64,000 nucleotides of DNA from a virus: positions 2,606-66,605 of IMG/VR virus record IMGVR_UViG_3300044801_000206. One strand, 5' to 3'. The position numbers were made by a program, and so were the translations under genes. Numbering within the stretch: the stretch's first letter is position 1; every line of letters begins with the position of its first letter. Below the pieces are notes generated by a model that saw nothing but the letters and a program-made list of their open reading frames with translations, had not been told where the DNA came from and did not search any database. Of the stretch, positions 5,444 through 46,488 are shown in pieces.

Positions 5444-5453
5444 CGCCTTTATT

Positions 5454-5651: not shown

Positions 5652-5777
5652 GACAGACCTCCTTTACCAAGATCTCCGTAAAGCCCCTAGCTTCAGACAT
5701 GGGGATATAAGGAGATTCGGCCTTTGGCCGACTGATTTTGCTTGTATTAGATTGCGCATGGCTGTATAATTTGATGA

Positions 5778-6176
5778 GTGGACTACAAGAGCAACAACAA
5801 CGTGGTTTATTCGTGCAAGTACCACGTCATCTGGTGCCCGAAATACAGGCGTTCCGTGCTTGTGAAGCCGGTCGATGCGCGGCTGAAAACACTCATCCGC
5901 GAAACAGCCGCCGCGCGACGATGCGAAGTCATCGAGTTGGAAGTGATGCCCGATCATGTCCATCTGCTGGTCGAGGTAGATCCACAGTACGGCGTGCATC
6001 GACTCATCCGCGAGATCAAAGGCAGAAGTTCCCATGCGCTGCGCAAGGAGTTCCCTTCTCTCGCTACTCGCCTGCCAACCTTGTGGACCAATTCGTATTT
6101 TGTTTCGACGGTTGGCGGTTCACCGCTGGCCATCGTCAAGCAATACATCGAGAACCAGAAGCGGAGCGAACGTTGA
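5778..6176 (+). CDS. tnpA: IS200/IS605 Y1 transposase
   Basis: [14 protein letters not shown] motif PDHVHL, catalytic Tyr in QYIENQ. Confidence 0.95.
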
Positions 6177-7366
6177 AACAGCTTCGCAAGGTGTACCGAT
6201 TCCGCATGGAGCCGAACGGCGCGCAACGCGAGGCGCTGTCGCGCATGGCGGGCGCCCGCCGATTTGTGTGGAACTGGGCGCTGGCACAGCGCAAGGCGCA
6301 CTACCTTGAGATTGGCAAGGGACTTCCGGCCGCCGAGCTTTCGAGCCGATTCACCGGGTTGAAGCAGCAACCGGAAACCGCGTGGCTTCAGGATGTGGAC
6401 TCGCAGGCCATGCAACAGGTGCTTGCCGATCTTCAGCGAGCCTACCGGAACTTCTTTGAGAAGCGGGCGCGATTTCCGCGTTTTAAGAGCCGGAAGCGGG
6501 ATCAGGCGCGGTTTCGGATTCCGCAGCGTGTCAAGATTGCGGATGGCCGGGTCTATGTGCCCAAGGTTGGATCGGTTGGGATTCGCCAGTCTCAATCTAT
6601 CGACGGTGCGACCAAGAGCGCGACGTTCAAGCGAGATGTCACCGGCAACTGGGATGTGACGCTGGTGACTGAGTTCACGATGCCCGATACGGCGTTGCCG
6701 CCTGCCGATCCGGCCCGCGTGGTGGGCGTGGACCTCGGGCTGAAAGACTTCGCCGTGCTGTCGGACGGCGAACAGGTTCCGGTACCGCAGTTCTTCCGCA
6801 AGTCGGAACGGAAGTTGCACAAGGCGCAGCGCGTGTTCAGCCGCCGCGAGAAGGGCAGCAAGCGGAGGCTGCGTGCGAAGCGGAATGTATCGCTGGTCCA
6901 CCGCAAGGTGGCGAACCAGAGGAAGGATTTCGTTCACAAGTTCACCACCGGATTGGTGGAGAAGTACGATGGGATCTGCATCGAGGATCTGTGTGTGAAG
7001 GGCCTTGCGAAAACCAAGCTGGCTGGACACGCGAAATCGGTCCTCGATGCTGCATTCGGAGAGACGCGGCGGCAACTTGAATACAAGACCGTGTGGAACC
7101 GTAAACATCTCGCGGTGATCGACCGCTGGTATCCATCCAGCAAGACCTGTCACGTGTGCGGCGCGGTCAACGCGGCGCTCACGCTGGCGGATCGAAGTTG
7201 GACGTGTTCGGGTTGCGGTGCTCATCTCGATAGGGATCGGAATGCGTCTCTCAACATAAAAACCGAAGGGCTAATCATTCTCGTCGCGGGGCACGCGAAG
7301 AGTTTAAACGCACAGGGAGCCGGTGTAAGACCTCCGCAGTTGGAGGCAGTCGGTGTTGAACTGTGA
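6173..7366 (+). CDS. tnpB: TnpB RNA-guided endonuclease (intact RuvC)
   Basis: TTG start overlaps the tnpA stop. GVDLG, IEDL, CHVC/CSGC zinc finger, DRDRNA. Confidence 0.95.
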
Positions 7367-7393
7367 ATCCCCCGGCTTCAGCCGTGGGGAGTG

Positions 7394-8107
7394 TCAATTC
7401 CACCGGTAACTCATGGTGCCCATGAACTCGGGCTGAATGGAACTGCCGGCTACTGCGGCTTCCCTCACCCCTCCGACGATGCCAAACCCGGCGGGGATCG
7501 CATGACCAAAAATTTTCAGGCCGCCCAAGTCCCCGCGAATACGTAGTCCCCCACCGAGATTCCCCAGGGCAATGCTTTGGGCGGCGGCCGCAGCGCTGGC
7601 CTGGGTAACTCCAAAGGTCGCGCCGGCATCCATAGTGGCAAAGAGCGAAACGCGGCCCGCTTTCTTGATAAGATATCCGAATCCGCTGCGCACCGTGGAA
7701 AGGTGCGACTGCATCTCGACTGTCGTAATCGAGCACACCTTTGAGCCGCATACCCCGAGTTCGAGAATGGCCGCCGCGAAAGACGGGCTCGAATAGCGGT
7801 TGTACTCCCCGCCAAGGCCCACGAAGACCGATGTCGTAGACGGCGCCGCGACGATGATGATGCAGGTGGCCCCTTCCACTACGAAGGTGTAGGTGCCCGC
7901 AAGGGTGGGCGTTCCCACGATCGCACCACTGGAGGCATTGAGCGTCAAACCGTTCGGGAGCGTCCCTCCGCTCAGTGTATAAGGCGTGGTGCCGCCCAGC
8001 ATACCGGAACTGTACGCTGCGCCAGTCGTTGCGGTATTGGTGGGACAGGTTTGCCCGAAGGCGCAGAACGCGACGGACAGAAGCACTAACCCAAATCGGT
8101 AAACCAT
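7394..8107 (-). CDS. Secreted protein: putative Ig (He_PIG-like) domain plus probable outer-membrane beta-barrel
   Basis: Signal peptide ending AFGQ. GGTTPYT..LPNGLTLNASSGAIVGTPT motif. Amphipathic beta strands ending SYRW. Confidence 0.6.
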   Translation of the reverse strand: MVYRFGLVLLSVAFCAFGQTCPTNTATTGAAYSSGMLGGTTPYTLSGGTLPNGLTLNASSGAIVGTPTLAGTYTFVVEGATCIIIVAAPSTTSVFVGLGGEYNRYSSPSFAAAILELGVCGSKVCSITTVEMQSHLSTVRSGFGYLIKKAGRVSLFATMDAGATFGVTQASAAAAAQSIALGNLGGGLRIRGDLGGLKIFGHAIPAGFGIVGGVREAAVAGSSIQPEFMGTMSYRWN

Positions 8108-9146: not shown

Positions 9147-9181
9147 ATGCTCTAAGCACGGTAGTCAACTATATAATTCCC
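9147..9181. promoter_or_regulatory. 35-bp intergenic repeat, copy 1 (TATAAT on +, TTGACT on -)
   Basis: ATGCTCTAAGCACGGTAGTCAACTATATAATTCCC is 34/35 identical to 19198-19232. Confidence 0.6.
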
Positions 9182-19236: not shown

Positions 19237-19354
19237 ATGTATCGGCCCTCGTAATTCTTTCCAGAGCCCGGTGCGGGCTTTCAGGAGCCAACGTAGAGGA
19301 TGTCGTCTCATGCGTTTCCTGAGAAGCCGTCGCGTTCACGCGACGGTAGTTCAC
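19237..19354 (+). ncRNA. Orphan omegaRNA scaffold of element C TnpB, followed by new guide TTCCTGACCAACTTGTCGCC
   Basis: 118-bp exact copy of 31753-31870 ending at TCAC. No tnpB or left end adjacent. RNA function is inferred. Confidence 0.75.
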
Positions 19355-22900: not shown

Positions 22901-23035
22901 CTGGGCGGCCTGCTGTGCAGTAATGGCAGTGGATTGAGCAAGGTCCAGCCGCAGGTTCAACCGATAAAGACCTGGGTCCTTCAGATCATTTTGGGAGACA
23001 TTGATCTGAGGCGAATTGGTGTTCTCGTTGGCCAT
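19991..23035 (-). CDS. Tail fibre/host-recognition protein with two He_PIG-like domains and a CBM-like domain
   Basis: Two GGxxPY..LPxxLSL..STG.I.G.PT motifs. NMLVNPS..GLVGW..LYQTFTV is CBM4/9-like. Confidence 0.7.
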   Translation of the reverse strand: MANENTNSPQINVSQNDLKDPGLYRLNLRLDLAQSTAITAQQAAQQALKATAAVTSTLAISFSGSTGIIGVVYGGAFTATGGSPPYIYSASGLPPGLSLNTSTGIIFGTPTTVGPYAVSGSVTDTAGNIATISCTIVISAAVSSTPLQISFAGSAGLIGLAYQGALIATGGVSPYTYSLASGSLPTSLSLSASTGAITGNPTVSGTFTFVGQVTDHASATATTASCTIVINGPPTQPSSIVLTDTGIRTLDQNQTTYATLQMVVKELMSGVLSTILNLEFSLTNRVASLPSLPNPNYPAGIYVYLTSSSQYYQNQSGTWVATATGGWTAIPSSPTVVPDRVDNDGTHYLTTVLFQILVQTSAQSIQVGAYGANQYANPGATVATLSNILTVPIAASPIAGGATITVTNVGGSSPTPANIYMGANGLGNPYWAVAVSLTTPLQGDPNCAFYQLCVEWTDSSGNPINPGGVSNTSGFNKNIEVPNTGATFVEPSLEGNYPGPGVDGYLKFSIWGLSRDNTVNSPPYTGDSTATLQTSTFLLHVGPPPTGNSNNMLVNPSAIQGLVGWTPDSTGTYSTVSNSSLGFAVQCFQIVASGVAGLYQTFTVRPADNYIFEIWAAVTAGAGSGTTEMRLIFLNASGGVVSSATLNLTSLLTSTLQPFSLTGTVPNNAVSMQASVDTLSGTSSTIIFTNSFLVSGVAAPLTKSGNTTTLAMGAGLSTVAGQLAVNITTGNAATVVAALALVDSLIASVGLNKLAAANVTQGTAIFTGDAIFSRGSGNPLIDLSSSGMTLYSTAASGGGSGLVSSPYMSLTGSGITIASSFGGANNYSVIISSSSIQMVYNGTAYITLNTSGITLASGGSSVTITSSSVAIVQGTLSLILNGITTSIANYYDSYGAGYAGFKCLDNSTGAYVGIRPFELFLLYSTTKTVDLYTNAVSGGQAGRLLLSSTATPSAYADLKVDAGSGILYLYDGTHVVNLNGSAFVHQGLPSSDPGSGTKQLWYDPSDSNRVKYAA

Positions 23036-26000
23036 TACGCTGCTCCTTCACCGAGGCCCATCAGTTCATTGAAATTCATCTGCCGCAAGCCAGCGTGCCG
23101 GTCGCCACCGCATTCAATCCATTCCAGACCAGACCCTTCAGTATAGAAGGCTAGGGGAGTTGCCGCTGTAATCTGCACTCTGTAGGTTTTGCTTTTGTTG
23201 TACCCACTGCCCCAAACAGAGGGCAACAAGAAGCGTTCTACCGCTCTCGTGGCATGCGCCGGCAAAGTGGCCGTGAATGTGCCTGTATCGGACAAGATCG
23301 TCACCGTGATCTGAGATGCGCAAGTGTACATCCACCAGCCTTGGAAGACGAACTTCCAAAACTTCACCCCAAAGGTCTGTTCATACGAGTCCCAGATCGT
23401 TACGGCAGCCGGCTCTTTGACATTCTCCACCGTCCAATCCCAGAGCTTGGCGAGACCATTTGTCCCTGGTGTCAACAACAGGCGCCATTGCGTTCCCGAC
23501 AGATTCGAATTGCATGGCAGAATCACTCGCCGCGAGGTATACGTGGTGTTCACGCTGAACACCTGCACCGTCCCGGCTTCTTGTGTTTGTAGCGCAATCG
23601 CGCAGGCTACACCGCCAGTGTTGATGGTAAGAATCAGATTACGCGCGAGCTTGGGGTAGGGATAGCCGAGATCAGACCATGGTGTCCAGAGAACTACATC
23701 CGCCGGGTCAGAGCCGGAAGATTCAGGGATAGGGCTCCAGCGATTAAACGCCCACGAAAATTGCTGGTACTTGCCTCCGTTGCCAGGCGTGATAGTCAGC
23801 CGCCACATTTTGGCGAACACATCCACAGGGATCGGATAGTTATTTTTCCGATTGTCCACCGACCCTGTGTGGTTCACGGTCATCACCGTGCCGTTTTCAT
23901 TCTGCAAAATGACGGCCGCTGGCACGCTTTGGGTGTCTGCATCAATGGAGAGCCATGTCGGATTCTTGTCATTTTGGCTCTCCGCGTCCTTCCAGCCGGT
24001 GCTGTAGATGATGTCCGCAGGATACGGGTCAAAATCGAACTTATATTTCCACTGCTTAAAGCCAGCCGGAATGGTGCCGCCGGAGGGGTAAACGCGGACC
24101 ATCTTGGCAATTGTGTCCGGCGCCAACGGAAACACGCATTTGCTCCGGCCTCCCGTGAGGGTGAAAGACGCTACTGCGGGCGTCACGGTCTGCCCGGCAA
24201 TGCCGCTGAGAGTATCCATCACCAAGTTCACGTTCGATCCGCTGGTGTCGTCCCACTCAATCGTGATTGTCCGAAGGTACTTGTCCCACGGGTGTCCAAG
24301 GTCATCCCAATCAAACGTGTGGCCCACCACTCCTGGGTCGGCAGGCTGAAACTTGAAACTGTGGTTGAATAGCTGAAACTCCCCGCCGCCACTGGTCAAC
24401 GCCGGTTGATTCGGGTCCACGAACAGGCGCCACATTTTCCCCTGCAATCCGGTTGGGATAGTGACGTTAATTTTCCGGTTTTCCTCCGTGGCTTTCGCGT
24501 TGAAGATAAAAACCGTCGCCCCGTCAGCCTGCACCTCTACCGTCACATCGACGTTATTGGTGTTGACTTCGATGTCCAACTGGTTCAGGTACTTGTTATA
24601 CTCCGAACCGCCATCTTCCCACTTCGTAAAGGCGACGATATCTGGGGGGTATTGCTCGTGCTGGAAATTGTACTTCCAGGATTTGAACCCTATCGGCAGA
24701 GGTGTGGTCTGCGGGTAGAGCCGGATGTCCTTCGCGATCAGCCCGTCAGGGAGCGGGAACGTGCGCTCACTGCGGCCAGCGGTCCCAAGATCGAATGTTG
24801 CCACTGCGGACTGGACGGTCCCACCGCCAATGCCAGTCAACAGGTCCAGCACCATCACGACATCACTGCCGCTGGTATTGTCCCATTGGATTGTAACGGT
24901 GTACAGCCGCTTATCGTAGGGATAGCCTAGATCATCCCAATCGAAAGTGTGTTGGACTTCTCCCTTATCCGCCTTCTGGAAAGCAAAGCGATGGTTGAAA
25001 AGCTGCCACATGCCGCCGCCGATGGTCAGAGCCGTTTGAGTGGGATCAACAAAGATACGCCATTTCCTGCCTTTCAGATTTGGCGGTAGCGTAATGTTGA
25101 CCCTGCGATTGGACTCTGTAGTGGTGATGGCGAAGGGCGGCCCGGCATTGGCACCGTCTGTTTGAATCCGAACCGTTACTGCGACGTTGTTGGTGTTCAC
25201 CTCGAAGGTAACTTGGTTGGCGTACTTGTCGTACTCGTAGCCGTCATCCTCCCACGGCGTAAAGGCAACGATGTCTGCGGGATAGTCTTCTTTCTGGAAA
25301 CTGTACTTCCAGTTCTTGAAGCCAACCGGGATGGCCCCGACGGATGGATAGAGTCGGATCGCTTTGGCAATCAGTCCGTCGAGTAATGGGAATGTGCGTT
25401 CGCTGCGACCGGTGCCGGCACCCAGATCAAACGTCATCACTGCGGAGCGTACCGTGCCACCGCTCACGCCACTCAACAGGTCGAGCACCATGACCACATC
25501 TGCACCGCCGGTGTTGTCCCATTGCAGCGTGACGGTATACAACCGCTTGTCGAACTGATGGCCCAAGTCGTCCCAGTCAAATGTATGCTGGACTTCTCCC
25601 TTATCGGCCTTTTGGAAGGCAAAGCGATGCGAAAACAACTGCCACATACCGCCGCCCGAAGTCAATGCCGTTTGGGTAGGGTCAACAAACAAACGCCACT
25701 TTTTACCCTTGAGGCTGGTAGGCACGGTGATATTGACGCGCCGGTTTGACTCAGTAGTTTGCGCAGTCCCAGTGAAAACCGTAGCGCCGTCTGTCTGTAC
25801 CAGAAAAGTGACGCTCACGTTGTTTGTGTTCACTTCCAAATCGATTTGATTCAAATACTTGTCGTACTCATACCCACCGTCTTCCCAAGGCGTAAAGGCC
25901 ACAATGTCAGCGGGATAGTCTTCTTTTTGAAAACTATATTTCCACCCTTTGAAGGTGACCGGCAGGGTGGTTTGTGGGTATAGCCGGATTGCCTTTGCGA

Positions 26001-29000
26001 TCAATCCGTCCGGCAAGGCAAAAGTCTTTTCACTGCGGCCGGCAGTCCCGAGGATAAACGTGGCGACTGCTGACTGGACCGTTCCACCACTCACCCCGCT
26101 GAGGAGGTCCAGTACCATTGTGACGGAAGCCCCGCCCGTGTTGTCCCACCGCAAGGTCACAGTGTAGAGCTTCTTATCGAAGGGATAGTCTAAATCGTCC
26201 CAGTCGAAAGTATGCTGGACCTCCCCGAGATCAGCCTTCTGGAAGGCAAAGCGGTGGTTGAAGAGTTGCCACATGCCGCCGCCCGACACCAGAGCAGTCT
26301 GGGTTGGGTCAATGAACAGGCGCCACTTTTTACCCTTCAGCGCCGTTGGAGTAGTGATGTTGACACGACGATTAGATTCCGTGGTTTGGGCGGTTCCCGT
26401 GAAAACAGTAGTCCCGTCCGCTTGGGCCTGGAACGTCACTGCCACATTGTTGGTATTGACCTCCAGATCAAGCTGATTCAAATACTTGTCGTATTCGTAA
26501 TTGCCGTCCTCCCAAGGGGTAAAAGCCACAATGTCAGCCGGGTATTCTTCCTTCTGGAAGGTGTACTTCCAGCTTTTGAATCCAAGCGGCAGTGGAGTCG
26601 TTTGCGGATACAACCGCACTGCTTTGGCGATCAGTCCGTCGGGCAATGGGAATGTTTTCTCGCTCCGGCCCGCCGTGCCAAGCACAAATGTTGCCACTGC
26701 GGACTGGACCGTTCCGCCACTCACGCCGCTCAGCAGGTCTAAAACCATCGTCACCGAGGCGCCACCCGTATTGTCCCATTGGATGGTCACGGTATAGAGC
26801 CGCTTATCGAACTGGTATCCCAGGTCATCCCAGTCAAAGGTGTGCTGCACTTCGCCCAGGTCCGCTTTCTGAAACGCAAATCGATGGTTGAAAAGCTGCC
26901 ACATGCCGGTGCCGCTGGCGATCGCCGACTGAGCTGGGTCTACAAAGATGCGCCACTTCTTGCCCTTTAGCCCAGGCGGGAGCGTGATGTTCACTCGGCG
27001 ATTCGATTCCGTGGCCGTCACGGTGAAGGTGGGTCCGGCGTTCGCGCCATCTGCCTGGATCTGCACGGTGACGGCGACGTTGTTTGTATTAACTTCAAAA
27101 TCGATCTGGTTAGCGTACTTGTCGTACTCGTAGCCGCCGTCTTCCCAAGGCGTCACGGTGCAAATGTCGGGCGGATAGTTCTCTGATTCCGGGAAAGTTA
27201 CCTCAAAGATCCGGAAGAGATCAGCCGACGATTGAGGCGCGCCGCCTACCTCCGTCGCAGAGGAATACGGTCGCACCCGGAACAGCTTCCCGATTGTCGG
27301 ATCTGATAGCGGGAAGGTTTTCATGCACCGACCCGAACTAAGGCCGGTCGGGCCGGTCAACGTGAACACCTGCGCGGTCCCGTTCGTCAGGCAGTCCCGG
27401 CCGCCGCGCGTTTCCAAAACAATTTGGCGATTTGTGCCAGCAGTATCGAATACCACCGTCATCTGGTATAGCCGCTTGTCGTGCCGGTTCCCCAAATCCA
27501 GCCAGTCCGTGGCGCTGCCGGCGGTCAACAGACCGGTCTCCTGGTACTGGAAGATCAGCCGGTCAAGCGTGCATTGCACCGGCAATGCCGTCCCGGATAA
27601 GACAAACGAAATTGCACGGGCCTCCCGACCATAGGACTGATAAGTGCTCCCGCTCACCAAACTCATGTTGGGAAGTAGGGATACAAGTTGGCGCCCGACG
27701 AAAGAACTGCCTGTGGGGATGGCGATATTGAACGTATCTACGACCGTATCTGAATAATTCAAGAGCACTTGCACTGTGATGGTGGAGCCGCTGGCGGTAT
27801 AAAGCTGTGGGTCCGCATCAAGCCACACCTCCTCCCACAGTTTGTTTATCGCCGGAGTGCCGAGATCAAACCACGGCAATTTCACCGACCAAGAGATCCC
27901 CGCGCCGTCTTGCCCGACTCCCGCCGCAGTCCACCAGTCGCTGGTGTAATTGATCCCACCGCTGATGTACACCGCATCCGCAATCCCAAATACGGCACCA
28001 GCCGAAGTGCCTACCGCCAAGATCAATGACTCCGTGTCCGGCTCACGATAAAGCGTAGTGATGGTGTTGAACGATCCTCCACCGGCCGGTTGATTTTCGT
28101 TGAGTTGATACCAGCGACTGCCATAACGTGGTTCACAAGCCAGCGTCCATATATTCCCATCCGTCGCTGTGTAGACCAACCGCACCACCCCGCGCCGGTA
28201 TTCCATTCTGGCACCAGCCAATGCGGCGGCAGCGGAATAGTTCAACGGGGCAATGCCGTTGAAGTACTGATTGTGGAAAATCGGGTCGATCGCTTCGGTG
28301 CGTTTGGTGAGGGTGCCCCCGTCCCAAGAGTAGACCCCATCGTTCGACAGGAACCACAATTCGCTCTCCGTCTTGCACCATGCCGATTGAGCAACTAAGC
28401 CTTTCTTAGCTACTTCTGCTGCTTGGTAAAGTGACCCGTTGATGACGGGGACTTCAAACAGTGAGCTTAGATTCATGCAGGCTACTTGCCCGCGGAATTC
28501 GCAGAGGTTCACAATGCCATTCGAAGGCGTTCCGACTCCCTGGCTGGTGATGGCGCCGGCCGCGTCTATGCCGACAGGGAACGCTTGTGGAGACCCGGCT
28601 TTGCTCTTGTAGAGCATGTGCGGGTTGTTGGGATCGCCGGCCACCAGGAGTTGATCGCCGATCGAGGCCGCCAAATTGCATGGCTGCCCCATGATGGTAT
28701 CCACTTCCACCGGCGTGCCAGAGGCATGGGCAAACTGGAAGTACGCCGTAAGGCTGTTCGATGTCACCGACACTGCTACAACATCTTCTGGCGTAGTCGA
28801 ATCCAGGATGTGGACTGTACTGCCTGGCGTGACGGAGGTGAAAACGCCAGCCGTCACGGTTATTGTGGCTGTCTGATATTGTGGGTTGCTAGGGATGGCC
28901 GCGATCGTGCCACTGATTGGCGTTTTCACGGTGCTGGGCACGGGAGGGTCATTGTCCGTCTCTACGATGGCTTGGTAGACTAAATCGGCATCAGCCGTGT

Positions 29001-30183
29001 TGTCGGTGAAGGTTACATAATTGCCATACCCCGGATTCGCTACGTTCGCCACCAACCGGTAGAGCATGTCTGTCAACGTGCCGCCGCGGCGGTACACATT
29101 GACCGTGGGGAATCGCGTATTGTCTGCGACTCCCCAGATCAGGACGTAGGCTTGCCCGCCATTCACTGCGACAGGGACGCCTAAATAGATCACGCTGCTA
29201 ACCGTCTTTGTCGTAGTGGAGTTAGCCGACATCGACTGTGAAGGGTTGCCCTGATCCTGTGTGGCCGCTTCCAAATAGCAACAAACCCAATCGTAAGGCT
29301 GAGTGCCATTGGGGCTGCTGACCGCTCCGCCATTCAGGTTCCCGGCGGAGGCAATGCCGGTAACGGTAACGCCTGCGCTGAACGCGCCTGTAGGCGCCAC
29401 TCCTTGACCGTTTGAATCGTATAAACCGAATACTGCGCCTTGCCCATAGCCGGCATAATATGGATCGGCGGCTGAATTGCTGTACCCGACCACTTTCGCG
29501 TAGTACTTACCGTCTCCGGTCGGACAAGTGGCATCGACAATCCATCCAGACGGGACCCCGGAAAATGTCACCACGTCGGCATCAGCAATGCCGGTAGCAT
29601 CGGCTAGGTAGATACGGACTGGGGTGATTGCATCAGCCCCCGTAACCGACACAGGTCCGGTCATTACCGCTGCCATCGGAACACCGTGCGCCGGTTGAAT
29701 CCCCCACTTGGGGAGAGTCGAATAGGGATTCAGGCCACTGTCTTTCAACATGGCGTTAGGGCAAGCGAGGTAAGCCCACGGAGACCCGGTATCCCCCGCA
29801 GCGTAATCGGCCATCTCCCAGTGGGCTTTGTAGTCCGTGTCCACCGCAGTCGCCACCAGCGTTGCGGTATTGTAGTCCAGAGTCCGGTAAAGATCGCGAG
29901 TTGAAACTCCCTGGATGCCGAGATAGCGCGGGTTGGTTGAAGGCGTCAGCGGGTCTTCTCCGCCAGCGATGCGTAGCTTCCGGATGTGGTAGCAATATAA
30001 TTGCGCTGAGGTAAGATTGCCAACTTTCTTCGGGCCAGTGCGACTGCTGAGAGAACCTTCTTGATTGCTGCCAACATTGAGCGCGGACCTGTACTGGCCG
30101 TCTTTCAGAAGGTCAGGAGCGGCCTTCGAGAAGATACCTGCAAGCCCGAATCGAAACTCTGCGCTCTTGGGAGGGGTGGCCAT
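23035..30183 (-). CDS. Tail nozzle/stabilisation-like protein (2382 aa) with tandem C-terminal repeats
   Basis: Propeller-like LYKSK..LWFLSNDGVYSWDG region, KLPWFDLG..K motif, then repeats. Confidence 0.7.
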   Translation of the reverse strand: MATPPKSAEFRFGLAGIFSKAAPDLLKDGQYRSALNVGSNQEGSLSSRTGPKKVGNLTSAQLYCYHIRKLRIAGGEDPLTPSTNPRYLGIQGVSTRDLYRTLDYNTATLVATAVDTDYKAHWEMADYAAGDTGSPWAYLACPNAMLKDSGLNPYSTLPKWGIQPAHGVPMAAVMTGPVSVTGADAITPVRIYLADATGIADADVVTFSGVPSGWIVDATCPTGDGKYYAKVVGYSNSAADPYYAGYGQGAVFGLYDSNGQGVAPTGAFSAGVTVTGIASAGNLNGGAVSSPNGTQPYDWVCCYLEAATQDQGNPSQSMSANSTTTKTVSSVIYLGVPVAVNGGQAYVLIWGVADNTRFPTVNVYRRGGTLTDMLYRLVANVANPGYGNYVTFTDNTADADLVYQAIVETDNDPPVPSTVKTPISGTIAAIPSNPQYQTATITVTAGVFTSVTPGSTVHILDSTTPEDVVAVSVTSNSLTAYFQFAHASGTPVEVDTIMGQPCNLAASIGDQLLVAGDPNNPHMLYKSKAGSPQAFPVGIDAAGAITSQGVGTPSNGIVNLCEFRGQVACMNLSSLFEVPVINGSLYQAAEVAKKGLVAQSAWCKTESELWFLSNDGVYSWDGGTLTKRTEAIDPIFHNQYFNGIAPLNYSAAAALAGARMEYRRGVVRLVYTATDGNIWTLACEPRYGSRWYQLNENQPAGGGSFNTITTLYREPDTESLILAVGTSAGAVFGIADAVYISGGINYTSDWWTAAGVGQDGAGISWSVKLPWFDLGTPAINKLWEEVWLDADPQLYTASGSTITVQVLLNYSDTVVDTFNIAIPTGSSFVGRQLVSLLPNMSLVSGSTYQSYGREARAISFVLSGTALPVQCTLDRLIFQYQETGLLTAGSATDWLDLGNRHDKRLYQMTVVFDTAGTNRQIVLETRGGRDCLTNGTAQVFTLTGPTGLSSGRCMKTFPLSDPTIGKLFRVRPYSSATEVGGAPQSSADLFRIFEVTFPESENYPPDICTVTPWEDGGYEYDKYANQIDFEVNTNNVAVTVQIQADGANAGPTFTVTATESNRRVNITLPPGLKGKKWRIFVDPAQSAIASGTGMWQLFNHRFAFQKADLGEVQHTFDWDDLGYQFDKRLYTVTIQWDNTGGASVTMVLDLLSGVSGGTVQSAVATFVLGTAGRSEKTFPLPDGLIAKAVRLYPQTTPLPLGFKSWKYTFQKEEYPADIVAFTPWEDGNYEYDKYLNQLDLEVNTNNVAVTFQAQADGTTVFTGTAQTTESNRRVNITTPTALKGKKWRLFIDPTQTALVSGGGMWQLFNHRFAFQKADLGEVQHTFDWDDLDYPFDKKLYTVTLRWDNTGGASVTMVLDLLSGVSGGTVQSAVATFILGTAGRSEKTFALPDGLIAKAIRLYPQTTLPVTFKGWKYSFQKEDYPADIVAFTPWEDGGYEYDKYLNQIDLEVNTNNVSVTFLVQTDGATVFTGTAQTTESNRRVNITVPTSLKGKKWRLFVDPTQTALTSGGGMWQLFSHRFAFQKADKGEVQHTFDWDDLGHQFDKRLYTVTLQWDNTGGADVVMVLDLLSGVSGGTVRSAVMTFDLGAGTGRSERTFPLLDGLIAKAIRLYPSVGAIPVGFKNWKYSFQKEDYPADIVAFTPWEDDGYEYDKYANQVTFEVNTNNVAVTVRIQTDGANAGPPFAITTTESNRRVNITLPPNLKGRKWRIFVDPTQTALTIGGGMWQLFNHRFAFQKADKGEVQHTFDWDDLGYPYDKRLYTVTIQWDNTSGSDVVMVLDLLTGIGGGTVQSAVATFDLGTAGRSERTFPLPDGLIAKDIRLYPQTTPLPIGFKSWKYNFQHEQYPPDIVAFTKWEDGGSEYNKYLNQLDIEVNTNNVDVTVEVQADGATVFIFNAKATEENRKINVTIPTGLQGKMWRLFVDPNQPALTSGGGEFQLFNHSFKFQPADPGVVGHTFDWDDLGHPWDKYLRTITIEWDDTSGSNVNLVMDTLSGIAGQTVTPAVASFTLTGGRSKCVFPLAPDTIAKMVRVYPSGGTIPAGFKQWKYKFDFDPYPADIIYSTGWKDAESQNDKNPTWLSIDADTQSVPAAVILQNENGTVMTVNHTGSVDNRKNNYPIPVDVFAKMWRLTITPGNGGKYQQFSWAFNRWSPIPESSGSDPADVVLWTPWSDLGYPYPKLARNLILTINTGGVACAIALQTQEAGTVQVFSVNTTYTSRRVILPCNSNLSGTQWRLLLTPGTNGLAKLWDWTVENVKEPAAVTIWDSYEQTFGVKFWKFVFQGWWMYTCASQITVTILSDTGTFTATLPAHATRAVERFLLPSVWGSGYNKSKTYRVQITAATPLAFYTEGSGLEWIECGGDRHAGLRQMNFNELMGLGEGAA
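23700..27180 (-). repeat. Five to six tandem ~630-bp (~210-aa) coding repeats
   Basis: TPWEDG.YEYDKY.NQ and QHTFDWDDLG recur at about 630-bp spacing. Boundaries are approximate. Confidence 0.9.
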
Positions 30184-30713: not shown

Positions 30714-31838
30714 ATGCGGCTCACCTACAAATACCGGCTGATCCCCACGAAGGCGCAGGCAGTCTTCCTGTCCGGCGAGCTTCGCGATGCCTGTTCGCTC
30801 TACAACGCCGCTCTCGAGGAGCGCATCGGGGCCTGGAGAACATGCCGCAAGAGCATCAACTACTACGACCAGGCGAACCAGTTGAAGGCGATGCGCGCCG
30901 ACGGCTGCCTGACACTGGCGAATTTCTCGTGCTGCCAGGATGTGTTGCGCCGGGTCGATAAGACGTACAAGGCGTTCTACGCTCGCGTGAGGCGTGGTGA
31001 GACGCCAGGCTTCCCGCGCTATCGTCCCGCCCGCAGGTACGACAGCATCACCTTCCCGTCCTATGGCGACGGATGCCGTCTGCTGCCTAACGGTAAGCTG
31101 CGCATCCAGGGCGCGGGGCACATCAAGGTCAAATTGCACAGGCCGCTGGAGGGAGCCGTCAAGACCGTGACAGTTAAACGTGAGGCTGGCCGGTGGTTCG
31201 TAATCTTCAGTGTGGAGCGGGATGCCGCTCCGCTTCCGGTCAGTAATCGCGCTACGGGAATCGATGTCGGACTGAACAATTTCGCCGTACTGGCAGACGG
31301 CACGGAGATTCAGAACCCGTGCTACTACCGAAAGGCACAGGCCCGGTTGCGCTGTGCTCAGCGGAAGGTGGACCGGCGGAAGAAAGGCGGCATCCGGCGG
31401 CGCAAAGCTGTACGGTTGCTCCAGCGGGCGCATGTCCATGTCGGCAACCAGCGGCGTGACTTCCAGCACAAGCTGTCGCGCCAATTGGTCAACGAATACG
31501 GTGTGATCGCCGTCGAGGACTTGAACGTGAAGGGGCTCGCTGGTGGGATGCTGGCGAAGTCCGTCCACGATGCCGGATGGTCGATGTTCCTGGGAATGAT
31601 CGCGTACAAGGCTGCGAGCGCCGGACGCGAAGTCATCCAGGTTGACCCGCGTGGCACGAGCCAGACGTGCGTCTGTGGGCAGCGCGTGGCCAAGACTCTC
31701 GCGGATCGGTGGCACGATTGCCCGGTTTGCGGATTGTCGGCTAGCCGCGATCATGTATCGGCCCTCGTAATTCTTTCCAGAGCCCGGTGCGGGCTTTCAG
31801 GAGCCAACGTAGAGGATGTCGTCTCATGCGTTTCCTGA
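30714..31838 (+). CDS. tnpB: TnpB RNA-guided endonuclease
   Basis: YNAALEER, GIDVG, VEDL, CVC/CPVC, SRDH. Acidic triad retained. Confidence 0.95.
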   Translation: MRLTYKYRLIPTKAQAVFLSGELRDACSLYNAALEERIGAWRTCRKSINYYDQANQLKAMRADGCLTLANFSCCQDVLRRVDKTYKAFYARVRRGETPGFPRYRPARRYDSITFPSYGDGCRLLPNGKLRIQGAGHIKVKLHRPLEGAVKTVTVKREAGRWFVIFSVERDAAPLPVSNRATGIDVGLNNFAVLADGTEIQNPCYYRKAQARLRCAQRKVDRRKKGGIRRRKAVRLLQRAHVHVGNQRRDFQHKLSRQLVNEYGVIAVEDLNVKGLAGGMLAKSVHDAGWSMFLGMIAYKAASAGREVIQVDPRGTSQTCVCGQRVAKTLADRWHDCPVCGLSASRDHVSALVILSRARCGLSGANVEDVVSCVS

Positions 31839-31881
31839 GAAGCCGTCGCGTTCACGCGACGGTAGTTCACAAACTCACTAT

Positions 31882-39209: not shown

Positions 39210-39256
39210 GCGCTATTCACTTTTCAAATCATTCTGCCGGCGGTAACTGGTTGTTG

Positions 39257-40399
39257 GGTAGTGGGTCACTTTGGCCCTTCTGCCGAAACGCCGACAACGC
39301 TCCTACCGAGCGCGTTCTCGCCTAAAGCGAGAATATTGATGGCCGCGTTGTGATCACGGTTCAAGGATAACCCGCAATGCGGGCATTCATGCCAGCGATC
39401 CGCTAGTCCCTTCGGAACTGTCTCACCACATCGGCTACATCTCTGCGTCGTACCCCTGGGATTCACTGCCACAACATAGCGCCCGGCGCGTTCGGCCTTG
39501 TACGCAAGGTGGAACAGGAGTTGCCCCCAAGCAGCATCTAAAATACTTTTGGCAAGGTATCCCTTCACCATGTTCGAAATCTTCAAATCTTCATGCGCGA
39601 TTAGGTCGTAGCGTGCTACCAGAGCCTTCGAAACGTGGTGGCAGAAGTTCTTACGAGCGTCGGCCATCCGCTGATACGCGCGGCGCGTTTGCTCTTTAGC
39701 ACGGAGCCGATTCTTACTGCCGCGTTTCTTCCGCGCCAGATTCTTTTGCGCCCGCGCGATCCGCTGTACATGCTGCCGGATGAAGCGCGGATTGGGAATC
39801 TCGCTACCATCCGATAATGTGGCAAAGGTGGTCAACCCAACGTCAATGCCTACAGGATGCGACACAACACATTTCCCTGGCGCTGGGCCAATGTCGCACG
39901 TCACACGCCCCACCCATTTCTTGCCAACCAGTTTGATTGTGGCCTGCTTGATAGTTCCTTTTATCTCCTGGTGCGCCTTGAATCGCACATGGCCCAGATT
40001 CGGAACCAGCACTGCGTCACCGTGAATTCGTGGGCTATGCCACGCGAATGATGTGTAGCGGTCCACCGACCGGAAACGCGGGAATCCAGGATCCTCACCG
40101 CTTTTGCAACGGCGGAAGAACGCTTTGAATGCCCGGTCGATCCGCCGTAGAGGTTCACGTTGAATGTCTGATGCGATCACGGAAAACTGTGGATCTTCAC
40201 GTAGACGCGCCAATTCCGCGCACTGGTCGTATAGGCTGATGCTTTTGTGTTGAAGTTTCCAAGCGTCCCGGCGTTCCTGGAGAGCCGCGTTGTACGTTTC
40301 CTGCGAGTCCAACAGAATACGCGCGAACGCTTCCTTCTGCTTCCGCGTCGGCTTCAATCGCAACTCGTAAGATCGCATCATTCAAACTGACCCACTACT
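39257..40399 (-). mobile_element. Element D: tnpB flanked by 11-12-bp terminal inverted repeats and an 8-9-bp target duplication
   Basis: GGTAGTGGGTCA at 39257-39268 and TGACCCACTACT at 40388-40399. Direct repeat GGTTGTTG at 39249-39256 and 40400-40407. Confidence 0.85.
39266..40381 (-). CDS. tnpB: TnpB RNA-guided endonuclease (intact RuvC)
   Basis: YNAALQER, GIDVG, HEDL, CSRC/CPHC, NRDHNAA. Confidence 0.95.
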   Translation of the reverse strand: MMRSYELRLKPTRKQKEAFARILLDSQETYNAALQERRDAWKLQHKSISLYDQCAELARLREDPQFSVIASDIQREPLRRIDRAFKAFFRRCKSGEDPGFPRFRSVDRYTSFAWHSPRIHGDAVLVPNLGHVRFKAHQEIKGTIKQATIKLVGKKWVGRVTCDIGPAPGKCVVSHPVGIDVGLTTFATLSDGSEIPNPRFIRQHVQRIARAQKNLARKKRGSKNRLRAKEQTRRAYQRMADARKNFCHHVSKALVARYDLIAHEDLKISNMVKGYLAKSILDAAWGQLLFHLAYKAERAGRYVVAVNPRGTTQRCSRCGETVPKGLADRWHECPHCGLSLNRDHNAAINILALGENALGRSVVGVSAEGPK

Positions 40400-43995: not shown

Positions 43996-44021
43996 AGTCT
44001 TTCTCCCTTTCGGTCTCCTCC

Positions 44022-44996
44022 TTAGAACAGCGTTGTGCTCGTCAGTTTGAAGCAGGTACGGGCGCCCGGCACCAGCAGCGTGGTTCCTGCGAGGAACTGT
44101 CCAGCGGTGTCGATGCCCAACTGGGTTCCTTTGAACCCGGTGAACCCGAAGTTGAACAACGGGTTGGCTGAGAAAAACCACTCGATGCCCTCGGAGCAGA
44201 GGCCCCACATGCGGCCGGCGGTCCCGGTTGGCGCGTAGGGGTCCATGACCACTTCGGCCTGATTGACCCGGACGGTAGCAAAGCCAGCTTGCGCCACGTC
44301 GGAAACCGTGTCCACATGCTGCTGCATCGGTTGCAGCGAATTCCAGACCAGATCCCAGCCGTTACGAGTTGCGGCTACTAGATCCACATGCTTGGTCCCA
44401 ACCCAAGCCTGCGTGCAGGCCTTGTTGAGATCCTTCAATGTGAAGCCGGTGAGCGCCGCCGTGTAGGCATTCATGCCGAGGATCACGCCGGCTGCGGCGA
44501 TATCTGCTCGGGTGATGCCGCCAATGGTGGTGAAGAGAGTGCCATCATCCACCCACTCTTCGAGGCCCGTCAGGTTGCGGTTGCGGCCTAACGTCGAAGA
44601 CGTGAGGTACAAGTCCTGCGCCAGCAACTCAGCCATTTCGGCGGAGGCGTTGGCAAACTTCAAGTCCACTTCGTTGAACACTGCCATGTCGCCGTCGTTG
44701 TTCATGGCGTTGAAGCCAACCAACGGCACATTGACCAGATAGAGACGCATGGGAACTTGCAGAGCAGTTTCCGTCGTCACGATCTGGGAAGGGGCACCCT
44801 CGCCGGGCCCAACCGCAGCGCCGGCCAGCTTGCCGATGATGAGCGGGCGCTGGACCAGAAGTCCGCCACGGAAGGTGTTGCGCCGCTGCTTTGACAACCG
44901 TACGAATACGGGGCTTGATTGGTACACCGTGTCGGTGGCCTTCCCCACAATCAGGTTGTGCGTGTAAGCGTTAATGCCCGGAATCGGGACTGCCAT
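44022..44996 (-). CDS. Major capsid protein
   Basis: 324 aa after the scaffold gene. DTVYQSSP..GG..QRP, LTGL..VD, IGGITR, VVMDPYAP motifs. Confidence 0.8.
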   Translation of the reverse strand: MAVPIPGINAYTHNLIVGKATDTVYQSSPVFVRLSKQRRNTFRGGLLVQRPLIIGKLAGAAVGPGEGAPSQIVTTETALQVPMRLYLVNVPLVGFNAMNNDGDMAVFNEVDLKFANASAEMAELLAQDLYLTSSTLGRNRNLTGLEEWVDDGTLFTTIGGITRADIAAAGVILGMNAYTAALTGFTLKDLNKACTQAWVGTKHVDLVAATRNGWDLVWNSLQPMQQHVDTVSDVAQAGFATVRVNQAEVVMDPYAPTGTAGRMWGLCSEGIEWFFSANPLFNFGFTGFKGTQLGIDTAGQFLAGTTLLVPGARTCFKLTSTTLF

Positions 44997-45021
44997 AGCT
45001 GTCTCTCCTTAAACCCGCGTT

Positions 45022-45819
45022 CTACTGCACTGGACCGAAATCACCGCGTCGGTACGCCTCGTATCCAAGCGCTGCCAACTCACCGGTCCCAGGTTTTGCC
45101 GAGGCGATTTTCGCCTTGAACTCATCCGAGACCTTTGCCGGCGCTCCCACATGGGCCGTAATCCCGGCGATGCCTCCGGTTTGATCCGTTGGCAACACGC
45201 CATTGGGCCCCATTGCTCTTTCCTGGGCTGCTTTGGCGTAGCCCCTTTGCTCTGCGGCTGCAAGATCTGCCGCAGTCTTTGTTTCCAATTCTTTCTGTGC
45301 GTTCGCCGCGATCTCCGCCCGCTTCTCGGCGACCATCTTGTCGTAGGCCACATCCGGGTCCTGGATGCCGGTATTGACGATGACTTCTCTCAACTTGGCG
45401 GGATCAAGGCTTTCACCGAACTCCTTCTGGTGCGCGAAGGCTTTCTTCGTCACAGCCTCATAGAAGTAGTTCATCCCGTTGATCTTGTCCTGGAAATCCT
45501 TCGCGGTGGACTTCTTGATATCGTCCAGCCGGGCCTGGAGTTTCGTGTCCAACTGCTGGTCGTCTACCGTGCCGACGCCGGCCGCCAGGCGGGCTTGTGC
45601 AGCGTCGAGATCAGCGCGCAACTGCTTCTCCACCTTGGTCATGCCAGCCTGCGGGTCCCAGTTTTCCTTCTGCCAGTTCACCCACGATCCGGCAAAGTTA
45701 GCTGTGGTCGCGAGATCGGATTCCATCTTGGCTACCGATGCCTGCAACTCTGGGTACTTCTTCAGAACTGCTTGATCTTCCGTCGGAACTTTTGCTAAGA
45801 ATTCGTCAAAAAAACTCAC
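45022..45819 (-). CDS. Capsid scaffolding protein
   Basis: Helical, charged, directly upstream of the capsid gene. GGAGG lies 9 nt before the GTG at 45819. Confidence 0.7.
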   Translation of the reverse strand: MSFFDEFLAKVPTEDQAVLKKYPELQASVAKMESDLATTANFAGSWVNWQKENWDPQAGMTKVEKQLRADLDAAQARLAAGVGTVDDQQLDTKLQARLDDIKKSTAKDFQDKINGMNYFYEAVTKKAFAHQKEFGESLDPAKLREVIVNTGIQDPDVAYDKMVAEKRAEIAANAQKELETKTAADLAAAEQRGYAKAAQERAMGPNGVLPTDQTGGIAGITAHVGAPAKVSDEFKAKIASAKPGTGELAALGYEAYRRGDFGPVQ

Positions 45820-45833
45820 GGTCAAATTCCTCC

Positions 45834-45951
45834 TTGACACTCCCCACGGCTGAAGCCGGGGGATTCACAGTTCAACACCGACTGCCTCCAACTGCGGAGG
45901 TCTTACACCGGCTCCCTGTGCGTTTAAACTCTTCGCGTGCCCCGCGACGAG
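45834..45951 (-). ncRNA. Orphan omegaRNA scaffold of element B TnpB, followed by new guide GGAGGAATTTGACCGTGAG
   Basis: 118-bp exact reverse-complement copy of 7280-7397. Preceded by TTAC+C. Confidence 0.8.
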
Positions 45952-45966
45952 GGTAATCCGACCTTG

Positions 45967-46045
45967 GGTAGTGGGTCACTTTGGCCCTTCTGCCGAAACG
46001 CCGACAACGCTCCTACCGAGCGCGTTCTCGCCTAAAGCGAGAATA
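45967..46045 (-). ncRNA. Orphan 3' scaffold of element D TnpB, followed by new guide CAAGGTCGGATTACC
   Basis: 79-bp exact copy of 39257-39335, including the right inverted repeat. Confidence 0.75.
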
Positions 46046-46103
46046 CTGGCTTGATGGTTAAAGCCATCCAATACCTTCTGTCCTTCTCCGAGTTGGGAAA
46101 AGT

Positions 46104-46112
46104 ATCGTAGCA
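46104..46112 (-). promoter_or_regulatory. Possible extended -10 promoter (TGCTACGAT) upstream of the omegaRNA tandem and scaffold gene
   Basis: TGnTAnnAT match only. Confidence 0.3.
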
Positions 46113-46117
46113 TCACG

Positions 46118-46477
46118 TTACATCGCCGGCTGTGCCCCTGGAATGTTGCCAGGGAGATTTGGCGGCACCGACCCGACCACCTGTGGACTCGGGTTAGCGG
46201 TTCGTTGTCTTAAGTTTGCAATTTCCGATTGCATAGCCTTGCCTGCTTGGGCAATCGGTACCATGAGAGTCCCCAGCGCTGGGTTGACCTGAGTAAGCAG
46301 TGGCGCGGTTTCGGCCGCCCACTGTTCCAGTTGCGCCATCTTCCCTTCCAAAACAGAGATCGGGTCCGGGAGTGAAGCACCCATTTGCCCGAACATTGGC
46401 GCCGCGGATTGCTGCTGTTGGGCCTGGACTTGCGGCGGAAGCGGTGGGATTGCCGTCATTTGACCGGCTAGTGCCAT
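46118..46477 (-). CDS. Pro/Gln-rich hypothetical head-morphogenesis protein
   Basis: GAGGA RBS. Operon position. Confidence 0.6.
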   Translation of the reverse strand: MALAGQMTAIPPLPPQVQAQQQQSAAPMFGQMGASLPDPISVLEGKMAQLEQWAAETAPLLTQVNPALGTLMVPIAQAGKAMQSEIANLRQRTANPSPQVVGSVPPNLPGNIPGAQPAM

Positions 46478-46488
46478 GTCAGGAATCC

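What the first reader, a model, noticed from the sequence alone, without database searches (positions are those of the whole stretch)
45814..45960. Orphan omegaRNA B sits behind its own target motif and its guide covers the scaffold RBS and start codon
Seen on the - strand: GGA-TTAC-C-[118-bp scaffold ending TCAA]-GGAGGAATTTGACCGTG. TTAC is element B's target motif, and the extra C equals the first base of its left end. The copy begins at the foot of a stem (CTC...GAG). The reconstructed empty site TTACGGAGGAATTTGACCGTG would be a perfect target, while the resident allele has TCAA in place of TTAC and should be immune. Inference: an insertion was trimmed to the minimal guide module. TnpB binding to this leader could also affect scaffold translation.
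Basis: partly seen in the sequence, partly recalled or inferred. Interest (0 to 1): 0.8.

Follow-up and report, generated by a model that had tools for sequence, protein, structure and literature searches.

The report
Leftover TnpB guide-RNA stub in phage
In front of a head-assembly gene of an uncultured peat phage sits a 118-base leftover of a jumping gene, cut down to exactly the folded guide-RNA part of its TnpB nuclease; this kind of relic is known, and nothing shows that the phage uses it.

Summary
On the - strand, 45951..45834 is a 118/118 copy of the right end of element B, an IS608-like tnpA+tnpB element at 5668..7397. It is preceded by TTAC-C and followed by the RBS and GTG start (45819) of the gene upstream of the major head gene. 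TTAC as B's target is supported: the left-end flank is TTAC|CAA in 3 of 3 family members with a recognisable left end, and the IS608 guide tetranucleotide AAAG sits before the hairpin. The copy starts at the first paired base of a covarying omegaRNA structure. TnpB-B is ISDra2-like, and its three conserved acidic motif positions are kept. Directly upstream lies an 85-nt right-end remnant of element A, and element C has its own 118-nt orphan at 19237..19354. The closest relatives have only 9-12 nt between the upstream stop codon and this start, with no TTAC. The roughly 284-nt block is therefore derived, and no empty allele was found. Public contigs from three other runs carry the junctions at phage depth. 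Best reading: a TnpA insertion at TTAC followed by an internal deletion, leaving an immobile solo right end that could still supply TnpB-B with a second guide. Use is unproven. This scan has noted similar phage stubs before on other DNA.

The parts
45834..45951 (-). B': orphan copy of the omegaRNA scaffold / right end of element B, ending TCAA
   Evidence: 118/118 identical to 7280..7397. Full-length match to family model R1. Starts at the first pair of the covarying structure.
45952..45956 (-). TTAC (45956-45953) plus C (45952): B's target motif and a base equal to the first base of B's left end
   Evidence: TTACC occurs 1 in 1586 positions.
45818..45833 (-). The 16 nt that would be the guide of B'. 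It contains the Shine-Dalgarno GGAGG (45833-45829) and the first two bases of the start codon GTG (45819-45817).
   Evidence: The start codon was fixed by homology to relatives.
45022..45819 (-). 265-aa gene directly upstream of the major head gene. 'Scaffold' is a label from position only.
   Evidence: No Pfam family at E<=0.001 and no PHROG family of known function; best PHROG hit is phrog_15067 (function unknown), E 0.0031. The next gene, 44022..44996, matches phrog_9953 major head protein at E 1e-17.
45952..45963 (-). 12-nt spacer between A' and B'. Nine of its bases can pair with the stretch between the SD and the start codon.
   Evidence: duplex -12.8 kcal/mol.
45964..46048 (-). A': 85-nt copy of the 3' end / right end of element A (tnpB-only)
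   Evidence: 84/85 identical to 39254..39338. It ends where the A-family right ends stop being alike.
46049..46117 (-). 69 nt of unknown origin between the upstream gene's stop codon (46120-46118) and A'
   Evidence: Absent from relatives L141 and L147. No match in any fetched locus.
5668..7397 (+). Element B, the parent. TTAC flank 5664-5667; left end from 5668; tnpA 5778..6176; tnpB 6173..7366; right end ends TCAA at 7397; omegaRNA scaffold 7280..7397.
   Evidence: Y1_Tnp E 3e-44. TnpB domains. ISDra2 TnpB structures E 1e-84. Ends by family alignment.
39254..40381 (-). Element A, parent of A': tnpB 39266..40381, right end to about 39254. The left boundary is not resolved.
19237..19354 (+). 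C': orphan 118-nt copy of the right end of element C (native 31753..31870). Same kind of object at another site.
   Evidence: 118/118 identical. Family alignment. Not checked against reads.

Best explanation
B' is a solo right end of an IS608-like IS200/IS605 element. An element of type B was inserted by its Y1 transposase TnpA immediately 3' of a TTAC that lay just before the ribosome-binding site of the gene upstream of the major head gene. A later internal deletion removed everything from the second base of the left end to the base before the first omegaRNA stem. What remains is TTAC, one left-end base, the complete 118-nt omegaRNA scaffold, the right-end cleavage motif TCAA, and the old flank. 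Without a left-end hairpin TnpA cannot excise it, so it is fixed in place. It lies in the sense orientation in the leader of a late gene. If transcribed, it would give an RNA with the scaffold of TnpB-B and a guide equal to the RBS/start region. The intact TnpB-B encoded 38 kb away could load this RNA. The loaded enzyme would cut only an allele that has TTAC directly in front of that sequence, and not the resident allele, which has TCAA there. Shown: the anatomy, the identity with B, the target motif of the family, the structural completeness of the scaffold, and that the insertion is derived and present at phage depth in the public contigs laid. Inferred: the order of events, that the RNA is made and loaded, and that TnpB-B reads TTAC. 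The most likely status today is a recent, passive relic.
For: Identity and boundaries. Element B is a complete IS608-type element. It has Y1 TnpA. Its TnpB has E 1e-84 to ISDra2 TnpB structures, and the acidic positions of the VDLG, IEDL and RDxNA motifs are invariant in TnpB A, B and C. Calling these the RuvC triad rests on my recalled knowledge of ISDra2. Target motif: TTAC|CAA at the left end of B, L010 and L022. That is 3 of 3 family members with a recognisable left end; 6 were examined, and L020, L011 and L023 showed none at that offset. AAAG sits directly 5' of the left hairpin, and the right end is TCAA in 6 of 6 close family members (L023 ends differently). This is the IS608 code: CL TTAC, CR TCAA, GL AAAG, and changes in GL retarget insertion (passages of PMC3201880). 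TTACC abutting the copy by chance is about 6e-4. Scaffold completeness: the consensus structure starts at the copy's first base. In the homologous ISDra2 system only -116 to -1 is bound and needed (passages of PMC10097598). Derived state: relatives L141 (head protein 89% identical) and L147 have 9 and 12 nt between the stop codon and GTG, and L007-L009 have 19-29 nt, against 298 nt here. The junctions appear in reads of other runs at phage depth. The site as it would have been before B folds into a hairpin around the SD: -10.2 kcal/mol, and 1.25% of 2000 shuffles fold as well. This fits the two flanks once having been adjacent. TAM equals TnpA target, and gene-less elements have omegaRNAs used in trans: passages of PMC10278001 and PMC10055086.
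Against: No empty allele and no full-length B at this site was found anywhere. The nearest relatives have TGTAA, not TTAC, before GGAGG, so the TTAC-bearing 11 nt must have arrived earlier together with the unexplained 69 nt and A'. The left-end evidence is a single base. There is no microhomology at the proposed deletion junction. A random deletion would not be expected to end exactly at the stem foot, nor to give the same 118 nt as C'. C' is not preceded by the motif found at C-family left ends (ATAG/ATAGA), so the same history does not obviously fit it. TTACC also lies at the same offset after the right end of native A, which I cannot explain. No RNA data exist for this record.
Confidence: 0.6

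Rival explanations
1. Kept and used: the stub is a working second guide for TnpB-B. It would drive itself and the neighbouring head genes into co-infecting genomes that lack it, or destroy them. This would be transposon 'non-restorative homing', analogous to free-standing homing endonucleases of T-even phages. The three TnpBs with one extra guide each would then form a small dispersed multi-guide system.
For: The scaffold is structurally complete and identical to that of an apparently intact TnpB-B in the same genome. Each of A, B and C has exactly one extra right-end copy. The stub sits in sense orientation inside a late operon, next to conserved head genes. It is immobile, so it cannot be lost by TnpA excision. 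The concept is in print (Table 1 of review PMC13565253, passages seen).
Against: The relatives actually found would not be targets. L141 has TGTAA instead of TTAC, and its sequence matches the guide only at positions 1-6. The guide has no TAM-flanked near-match elsewhere in the record, and the two exact 19-mer hits in IMG/VR are unrelated genes without TTAC. 100% identity to the parent means the copy is recent, so there is no signal of selection. A' probably lacks 5' parts of its RNA (weak). In 10 other viral records with C-family elements, 18 of 19 model hits sit behind a tnpB (one of them truncated), and only 1 weak hit stands alone.
Confidence: 0.15
2. Different origin: the 118 nt were not left by a deletion. 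They were copied in at omegaRNA length, for example by repair of a TnpB cut templated by the mature omegaRNA itself, or by an aborted gene conversion from a filled allele.
For: The 5' boundary is exactly the first paired base of the RNA structure. That corresponds to the processed 5' end seen for ISDra2 at -116 (PMC10097598). B' and C' have the same length, 118 nt. Unchecked notes of this scan mention 118-base TnpB stubs in three other, unrelated phage records. There is no microhomology at the junction.
Against: The left junction keeps exactly TTAC plus the left-end base. TnpA insertion explains this, and a TAM-distal TnpB cut does not. No reverse transcriptase was looked for or seen. C' starts 27 nt before its first covarying stem and has no TAM-like motif upstream. 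A' is 85 nt long and the two D-type stubs are 35 nt. Processed omegaRNAs range from 79 to 466 nt between families (PMC10278001), so one shared length is not expected from RNA biology.
Confidence: 0.1
3. Leader regulation: TnpB-B binds or processes the scaffold within the late mRNA and thereby lowers or times translation of the downstream head-assembly gene.
For: The guide part is the SD and start codon. [quoted passage not shown] The 12-nt spacer can pair with the stretch between the SD and the start, closing the module in a long-range helix.
Against: This is purely positional: any right-end flank becomes 'guide'. Native B and C also sit right in front of gene starts, which suggests an insertion-site habit rather than a regulatory design. 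The relatives manage with a 9-12-nt junction. There is no expression data.
Confidence: 0.07
4. Assembly artefact: a repeat-induced mis-join placed the end of element B in front of the head-assembly gene.
For: The repeat is exact and short, and the record begins inside another TnpB gene. This shows that the assembler broke at such repeats.
Against: Independent k=31 contigs from runs X3, X4 and X5 carry the left junction, and X5 spans the whole orphan from 45815 to 46055 with 0 differences. The junction depth equals the phage depth, and the 118-nt piece has about twice that depth.
Confidence: 0.02

Closest known systems
IS608 of Helicobacter pylori (IS200/IS605 family, Y1 TnpA plus TnpB)
   Same: The parent element B has tnpA and tnpB. 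It inserts 3' of TTAC, ends in TCAA, has subterminal imperfect hairpins, and has AAAG directly 5' of the left hairpin (PMC3201880).
   Different: The cleavage sites lie 16 nt before and 8 nt after the hairpin feet, against 19 and 10 in IS608. B lives in a phage. B' itself has no left end and no genes.
ISDra2 TnpB and its omegaRNA (Deinococcus radiodurans)
   Same: TnpB-B matches the solved ISDra2 TnpB structures at E 1e-84. The scaffold is about the same length (118 against 116 nt) and begins with a stem at its 5' end. A GUC near the 3' end could pair with the loop of that stem, as in the ISDra2 pseudoknot; I judged this by eye and did not test it.
   Different: The inferred TAM is TTAC, against TTGAT. 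The RNA copy here stands apart from its nuclease gene.
Gene-less IS200/IS605 derivatives (PATEs) and stand-alone omegaRNAs
   Same: It is a protein-free derivative that still encodes an omegaRNA, which would need a TnpB supplied in trans (PMC10055086 discussion).
   Different: PATEs keep both ends and can be moved by TnpA. B' keeps 1 base of the left end and is immobile. Here the cognate TnpB, with an identical scaffold, is in the same genome.
TldR (nuclease-dead TnpB-like repressors with a guide aimed at a promoter)
   Same: A TnpB-family guide overlaps the expression signals of a gene.
   Different: In TnpB-B the three acidic motif positions are conserved. The resident site lacks the TAM, so DNA binding there is not expected, and the guide is simply the insertion flank. 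I saw only the search listing and abstract for PMC10705468.
Free-standing homing endonuclease genes of T-even phages (intronless homing, marker exclusion)
   Same: This is the way a trans guide next to conserved structural genes could act against co-infecting relatives (review PMC13565253).
   Different: No susceptible relative was found, and recognition would be by RNA guide plus TAM.

Membership tests
IS200/IS605, IS608-like (parent element B) | Y1 (HUH) transposase TnpA | tested here: met
   5778..6176 matches PF01797 Y1_Tnp, E 3.4e-44.
IS200/IS605, IS608-like (parent element B) | TnpB with the OrfB_IS605 domain and a zinc-finger/TNB domain | tested here: met
   PF01385, PF07282 and PF12323 all match. 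PDB TnpB hits at E 1e-84. The acidic positions of the three conserved motifs are invariant; calling them the RuvC triad is recalled.
IS200/IS605, IS608-like (parent element B) | Insertion 3' of a fixed tetranucleotide that pairs with a guide tetranucleotide 5' of the left hairpin; a different motif ends the element; no target duplication | tested here: met
   TTAC|CAA with AAAG before the hairpin in B, L010 and L022. TCAA end in 6 of 6 close family members. Flanks differ after TCAA.
TnpB omegaRNA (B') | Sequence and structure of the cognate scaffold, ending at the right end and followed by flank as guide | tested here: met
   118/118 identity. Model R1 positions 1-118, 140.3 bits. 16 of 35 pairs have compensatory changes in the family.
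TnpB omegaRNA (B') | Is transcribed, processed and bound by TnpB | not testable with these tools
   No RNA run holds the stretch. This is no evidence either way.
TnpB omegaRNA (B') | The nuclease reads TTAC as its TAM | not tested
   Inferred from the rule that the TAM equals the TnpA target (PMC10278001).
PATE / mobile gene-less IS200/IS605 derivative | Both a left end and a right end with their hairpins | tested here: not met
   Only 1 base upstream of the scaffold matches the left end. Upstream lie a 12-nt spacer and A'.
TldR-type RNA-guided repressor system | Nuclease-dead TnpB relative and a TAM-flanked target at the regulated gene | tested here: not met
   The acidic motif positions are conserved in TnpB-B. 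The resident site has TCAA, not TTAC.

The most novel reading that the evidence does not exclude
Scaffold-length right-end stubs such as B' and C' may not be random deletion scars. They may be products of a process tied to the mature omegaRNA, such as RNA-templated or aborted repair of TnpB cuts. In this phage they would give each resident TnpB a second, immobile guide: a dispersed proto-array, one step from a nuclease with a fixed guide towards a nuclease with several trans-encoded guides, used to bias inheritance of the head-gene region.
Probability: 0.08. Interest if true: 0.75.

Novelty: new member of a known kind. Interest (0 to 1): 0.33.

Why it matters
If it is only a relic, it is a clean, dated example of how IS200/IS605 elements decay in phage genomes. 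It also shows that such decay can leave a complete guide-RNA gene welded to the translation start of an essential late gene. If the stub is loaded by the TnpB encoded elsewhere in the same genome, the phage would be a natural case of one TnpB served by two guides at separate loci. That arrangement is thought to lie on the path from transposon nucleases to CRISPR-Cas12. It would also give a simple system for testing TnpB-driven homing between co-infecting phages. The exact 118-nt boundary, shared with a second element here and reported in unchecked notes for other phages, deserves one systematic survey.

Tried and rejected
Rfam at gathering scores: only a tRNA in the window, no omegaRNA family. 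The phage GenBank collection had no match to 44000-48000. The downstream gene's protein found no relative in IMG/VR. The exact 19-mer of the guide region hit 2 IMG/VR records, both unrelated genes without TTAC. No empty-allele joint and no skipped form appeared in contigs of 4 runs; contigs drop rare variants, so this does not show absence. No RNA holder was listed for the stretch. B-type right ends in the 5 genomes or records holding the closest TnpB-B relatives: one full copy in each of 4, none in 1, plus three short hairpin-only hits, and no stub. Model R1 in 121 genomes of the family of the closest MAG matched only that MAG; only 30 candidates were scored per genome. Model R2 in 10 other viral records gave 19 hits, of which 18 sit behind a tnpB (one truncated) and 1 weak hit has none. 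I considered that the 18 nt upstream of B' are an older, diverged B-like gene piece, since 11 of 18 match and partly in codon phase. I set this aside because 5 of those matches belong to the end of A', leaving 6 of 12, which is not significant. I considered the 35-nt repeat before C' as a promoter. The sigma-70 scan does not call it, and it resembles the right-end tip of another TnpB subfamily. A's ends and TAM could not be fixed: the left side is not conserved among relatives, and the A-family fold has only 4 sequences and 3 compensatory pairs. Literature searches for orphan or solo omegaRNAs gave no paper on left-end-less stubs in phages. Altae-Tran 2021 is not held, and supplements were not opened, so earlier descriptions may exist.

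Full report
WHAT THE WINDOW IS. The window is bases 2606-66605 of a 66.6-kb IMG/VR virus record, estimated 87% complete. Almost all large genes lie on the - strand. ORF 44022..44996 matches a PHROG major head protein at E 1e-17, and ORF 54888..56813 matches portal proteins. The gene just upstream of the head gene is 45022..45819. It has no Pfam family at E<=0.001 and no PHROG family of known function; the best PHROG hit is phrog_15067, function unknown, E 0.0031. 'Scaffold' is therefore a label from position only. The stretch is held by peat metagenome runs. The closest relatives of TnpB-B are in Acidobacteriota MAGs, at 87% and 72% identity. This is only a weak hint at the host.

THE OBSERVATION. 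On the - strand the text reads GGA, TTAC, C, then 118 nt ending TCAA, then GGAGGAATTTGACC and GTG. The 118 nt (45951..45834) are identical to 7280..7397 on the + strand; my first calls wrote 7279-7396, one base off, and one search corrects this. The parent is a complete element, B. It has a TTAC flank at 5664-5667, a left end from 5668, and tnpA at 5778..6176 (Y1_Tnp, E 3e-44). Its tnpB is at 6173..7366, with three TnpB Pfam domains and E 1e-84 to the solved ISDra2 TnpB structures. The right end stops at TCAA, position 7397. The start of the downstream gene is the GTG at 45819, as shown by the N-termini of five relatives. A 16-nt guide would therefore cover the Shine-Dalgarno GGAGG and two bases of the start codon.

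IS TTAC THE TARGET OF B? I aligned the region upstream of tnpA in B and five relatives. Two relatives, L010 and L022, have a left end like B's, and all three read TTAC|CAA. Each has AAAG directly before the left hairpin. The other three relatives (L020, L011, L023) show no left end at that offset. At the other end, B and five relatives (L020, L010, L021, L011, L022) all stop at TCAA, 8 nt after the hairpin, and diverge beyond it; L023, the most distant, ends differently. TTAC, TCAA and AAAG are the cleavage and guide tetranucleotides of IS608, and changing the guide tetranucleotide retargets insertion (passages of PMC3201880). TnpA-B therefore almost certainly inserts after TTAC, and the first base of the left end is C. 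That TnpB-B reads the same motif follows from the published rule that TAM and TnpA target coincide (passages of PMC10278001). I did not test it. TTACC occurs once in 1586 positions of this record, so finding it flush against the copy is not chance.

IS THE SCAFFOLD COMPLETE? A consensus fold of six B-family right ends gives 35 pairs, 16 of them with compensatory changes. Its first pair is the first base of the orphan, and nothing is predicted in the 35 columns upstream. In ISDra2 only nucleotides -116 to -1 stay bound and are needed, and stem 1 begins at -116 (passages of PMC10097598). The orphan thus holds the whole structured RNA and nothing more. A covariance model of the family matches native and orphan copies over positions 1-118. 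The model was built with native B and the orphan is identical to it, so this adds no independent support. The acidic positions of the three conserved motifs are invariant in TnpB A, B and C, so a nuclease that could load the RNA looks intact.

- Twelve bases upstream of B' lies an 85-nt copy (84/85) of the right end of a second element, A. A is tnpB-only at 39266..40381. Its copy ends where A-family right ends stop being alike.
- A third element, C (tnpA plus tnpB 30714..31838), has its own orphan at 19237..19354. This orphan is again 118/118.
- Just before C' sits a 35-nt unit that recurs at 9147..9181. It resembles the right-end tip of another TnpB subfamily.
- There is also a 268-aa truncated TnpB at 2535..3341.
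- The record begins inside a further C-like tnpB.
This phage is heavily colonised, and B' is one stub among several.

THE ANCESTRAL STATE. Relatives found through the head protein show a compact junction. L141 (89% identical) has 9 nt and L147 has 12 nt between the stop codon of the upstream gene and the GTG. L007-L009 (70-72%) have 19-29 nt. Here the same interval is 298 nt. It consists of 69 nt of unknown origin (no match in any fetched locus), A', the 12-nt spacer with TTAC, B', and the 14-nt RBS stretch. The whole block is derived. In L141 the bases before GGAGG are TGTAA, not TTAC. The TTAC that B used was therefore not ancestral to the group; it came with the earlier insertions. If the 118+1 nt are removed in silico, the spacer and the leader form a hairpin around the SD: -10.2 kcal/mol, and 1.25% of 2000 shuffles fold as well. 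This is modest support for the two flanks once having been adjacent.

IS IT REAL DNA? Logan contigs of four runs other than the likely sources were laid on 44800-47000.
- In X3 a 72-nt piece spans the end of A', the spacer and the start of B' at depth 36.4.
- The flanking phage contigs in X3 have depths 33.8 and 30.9.
- The 118-nt piece in X3 has depth 74.4, as expected for two copies.
- X4 has 45842-45993 and X5 has 45815-46055. Both show no differences.
No joint skipping the insert was seen, although contigs drop rare variants. An assembly artefact is excluded for B'.

HOW IT MOST LIKELY CAME ABOUT AND WORKS. The simplest history has two steps. First, TnpA inserted a B element after TTAC. 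Then an internal deletion ran from the second left-end base to the foot of the first RNA stem. The result cannot be excised, because TnpA needs the left hairpin. It lies in sense orientation in a late-gene leader, and no terminator-like site lies on the - strand of 45500-46600, so it is probably part of the late transcript. TnpB-B could process and load it, given that TnpB makes its omegaRNA from longer transcripts (PMC10278001). The guide matches only its own site, which carries TCAA. No TAM-flanked near-match exists elsewhere in the record for this or the other five guides. I put 0.6 on 'recent passive relic of insertion plus deletion, potentially usable'.

WHAT DOES NOT FIT.
- The deletion ends exactly at the stem foot.
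- C' has exactly the same length, yet it starts 27 nt before its first covarying stem. It also lacks the ATAG(A) motif seen at C-family left ends.
- TTACC lies at the same offset after the right end of native A.
- An 11-nt direct repeat flanks native A.
Unchecked notes of this scan report 118-base TnpB stubs in three other, unrelated phage records, and tandem stubs in a gene leader in another. My sequences match none of those records. I know of no ruler that would give this length. An origin templated by the omegaRNA is the boldest reading, and I give it about 0.1.

FUNCTION AS A WEAPON OR DRIVE. The idea is in print as 'non-restorative homing' to co-infecting phages (review PMC13565253). Gene-less elements whose omegaRNAs need a TnpB in trans are also described (PMC10055086). 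Here, however, the relatives actually found are not targets: they have the wrong TAM and match the guide only at positions 1-6. The copy is too recent to show selection. Stubs are not general in other records with related elements. Regulation of translation by TnpB binding remains an untested possibility.

VERDICT. The object is a left-end-less solo right end of an IS608-like element that retains a complete omegaRNA gene. It is a new member of a known kind, and this scan has noted similar stubs before on other DNA. Interest is modest. The open point worth a survey is the exact, repeated 118-nt boundary.

Noticed in passing
window 19237-19354 (+), parent 31753-31870: Element C (tnpA plus tnpB 30714..31838) has an orphan right-end copy, 118/118 identical and exactly as long as B'. 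It lies antisense between - strand genes. No C-type target motif lies upstream.
   Followed up: partly
window 9147-9181 and 19198-19232 (+): A 35-nt unit (34/35) ending in TATATAATTCCC. The second copy sits 4 nt before C'. It resembles the right-end tip of the TnpB subfamily of loci L122, L124 and L125. No full element of that type is in the record. Both copies share the same 5' boundary.
   Followed up: partly
window 2526-3434 (-): A short element with a 268-aa TnpB that has only the RuvC-like (OrfB_IS605) and TNB domains and lacks the N-terminal half. Hairpins like those of element B lie at both ends.
   Followed up: partly
contig bases 3-213, upstream of the window (G000:C1): The record begins inside a further tnpB (75% identical to the C-terminus of TnpB-C) with its right end. 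The assembly broke at an IS copy.
   Followed up: no
window 39242-39253 and 40399-40409 (-): An 11-nt direct repeat flanks element A, and the insertion cut off the 3' end of a small membrane-protein ORF. TTACC lies 8-12 nt after the A right end both here and at A'.
   Followed up: partly
window 5650-5668 and 30181-30190: Elements B and C both sit, in divergent orientation, within about 15 nt of the start codon of a - strand gene. B' and A' sit in front of the gene upstream of the head gene. Insertions cluster at gene starts.
   Followed up: no
window 3773-5491 (-): A phage-encoded deoxyhypusine synthase homologue (E 4e-50) interrupted by an intein splicing domain.
   Followed up: no
window 24280-27180: About 630-nt tandem repeats at 67-72% identity inside the 2382-aa ORF 23035..30183.
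   Followed up: no
window 45834-45881, run X3: The right-end hairpin region has word depth about 3700 in one peat run, with many different flanks. IS elements with this end are abundant in that community.
   Followed up: no
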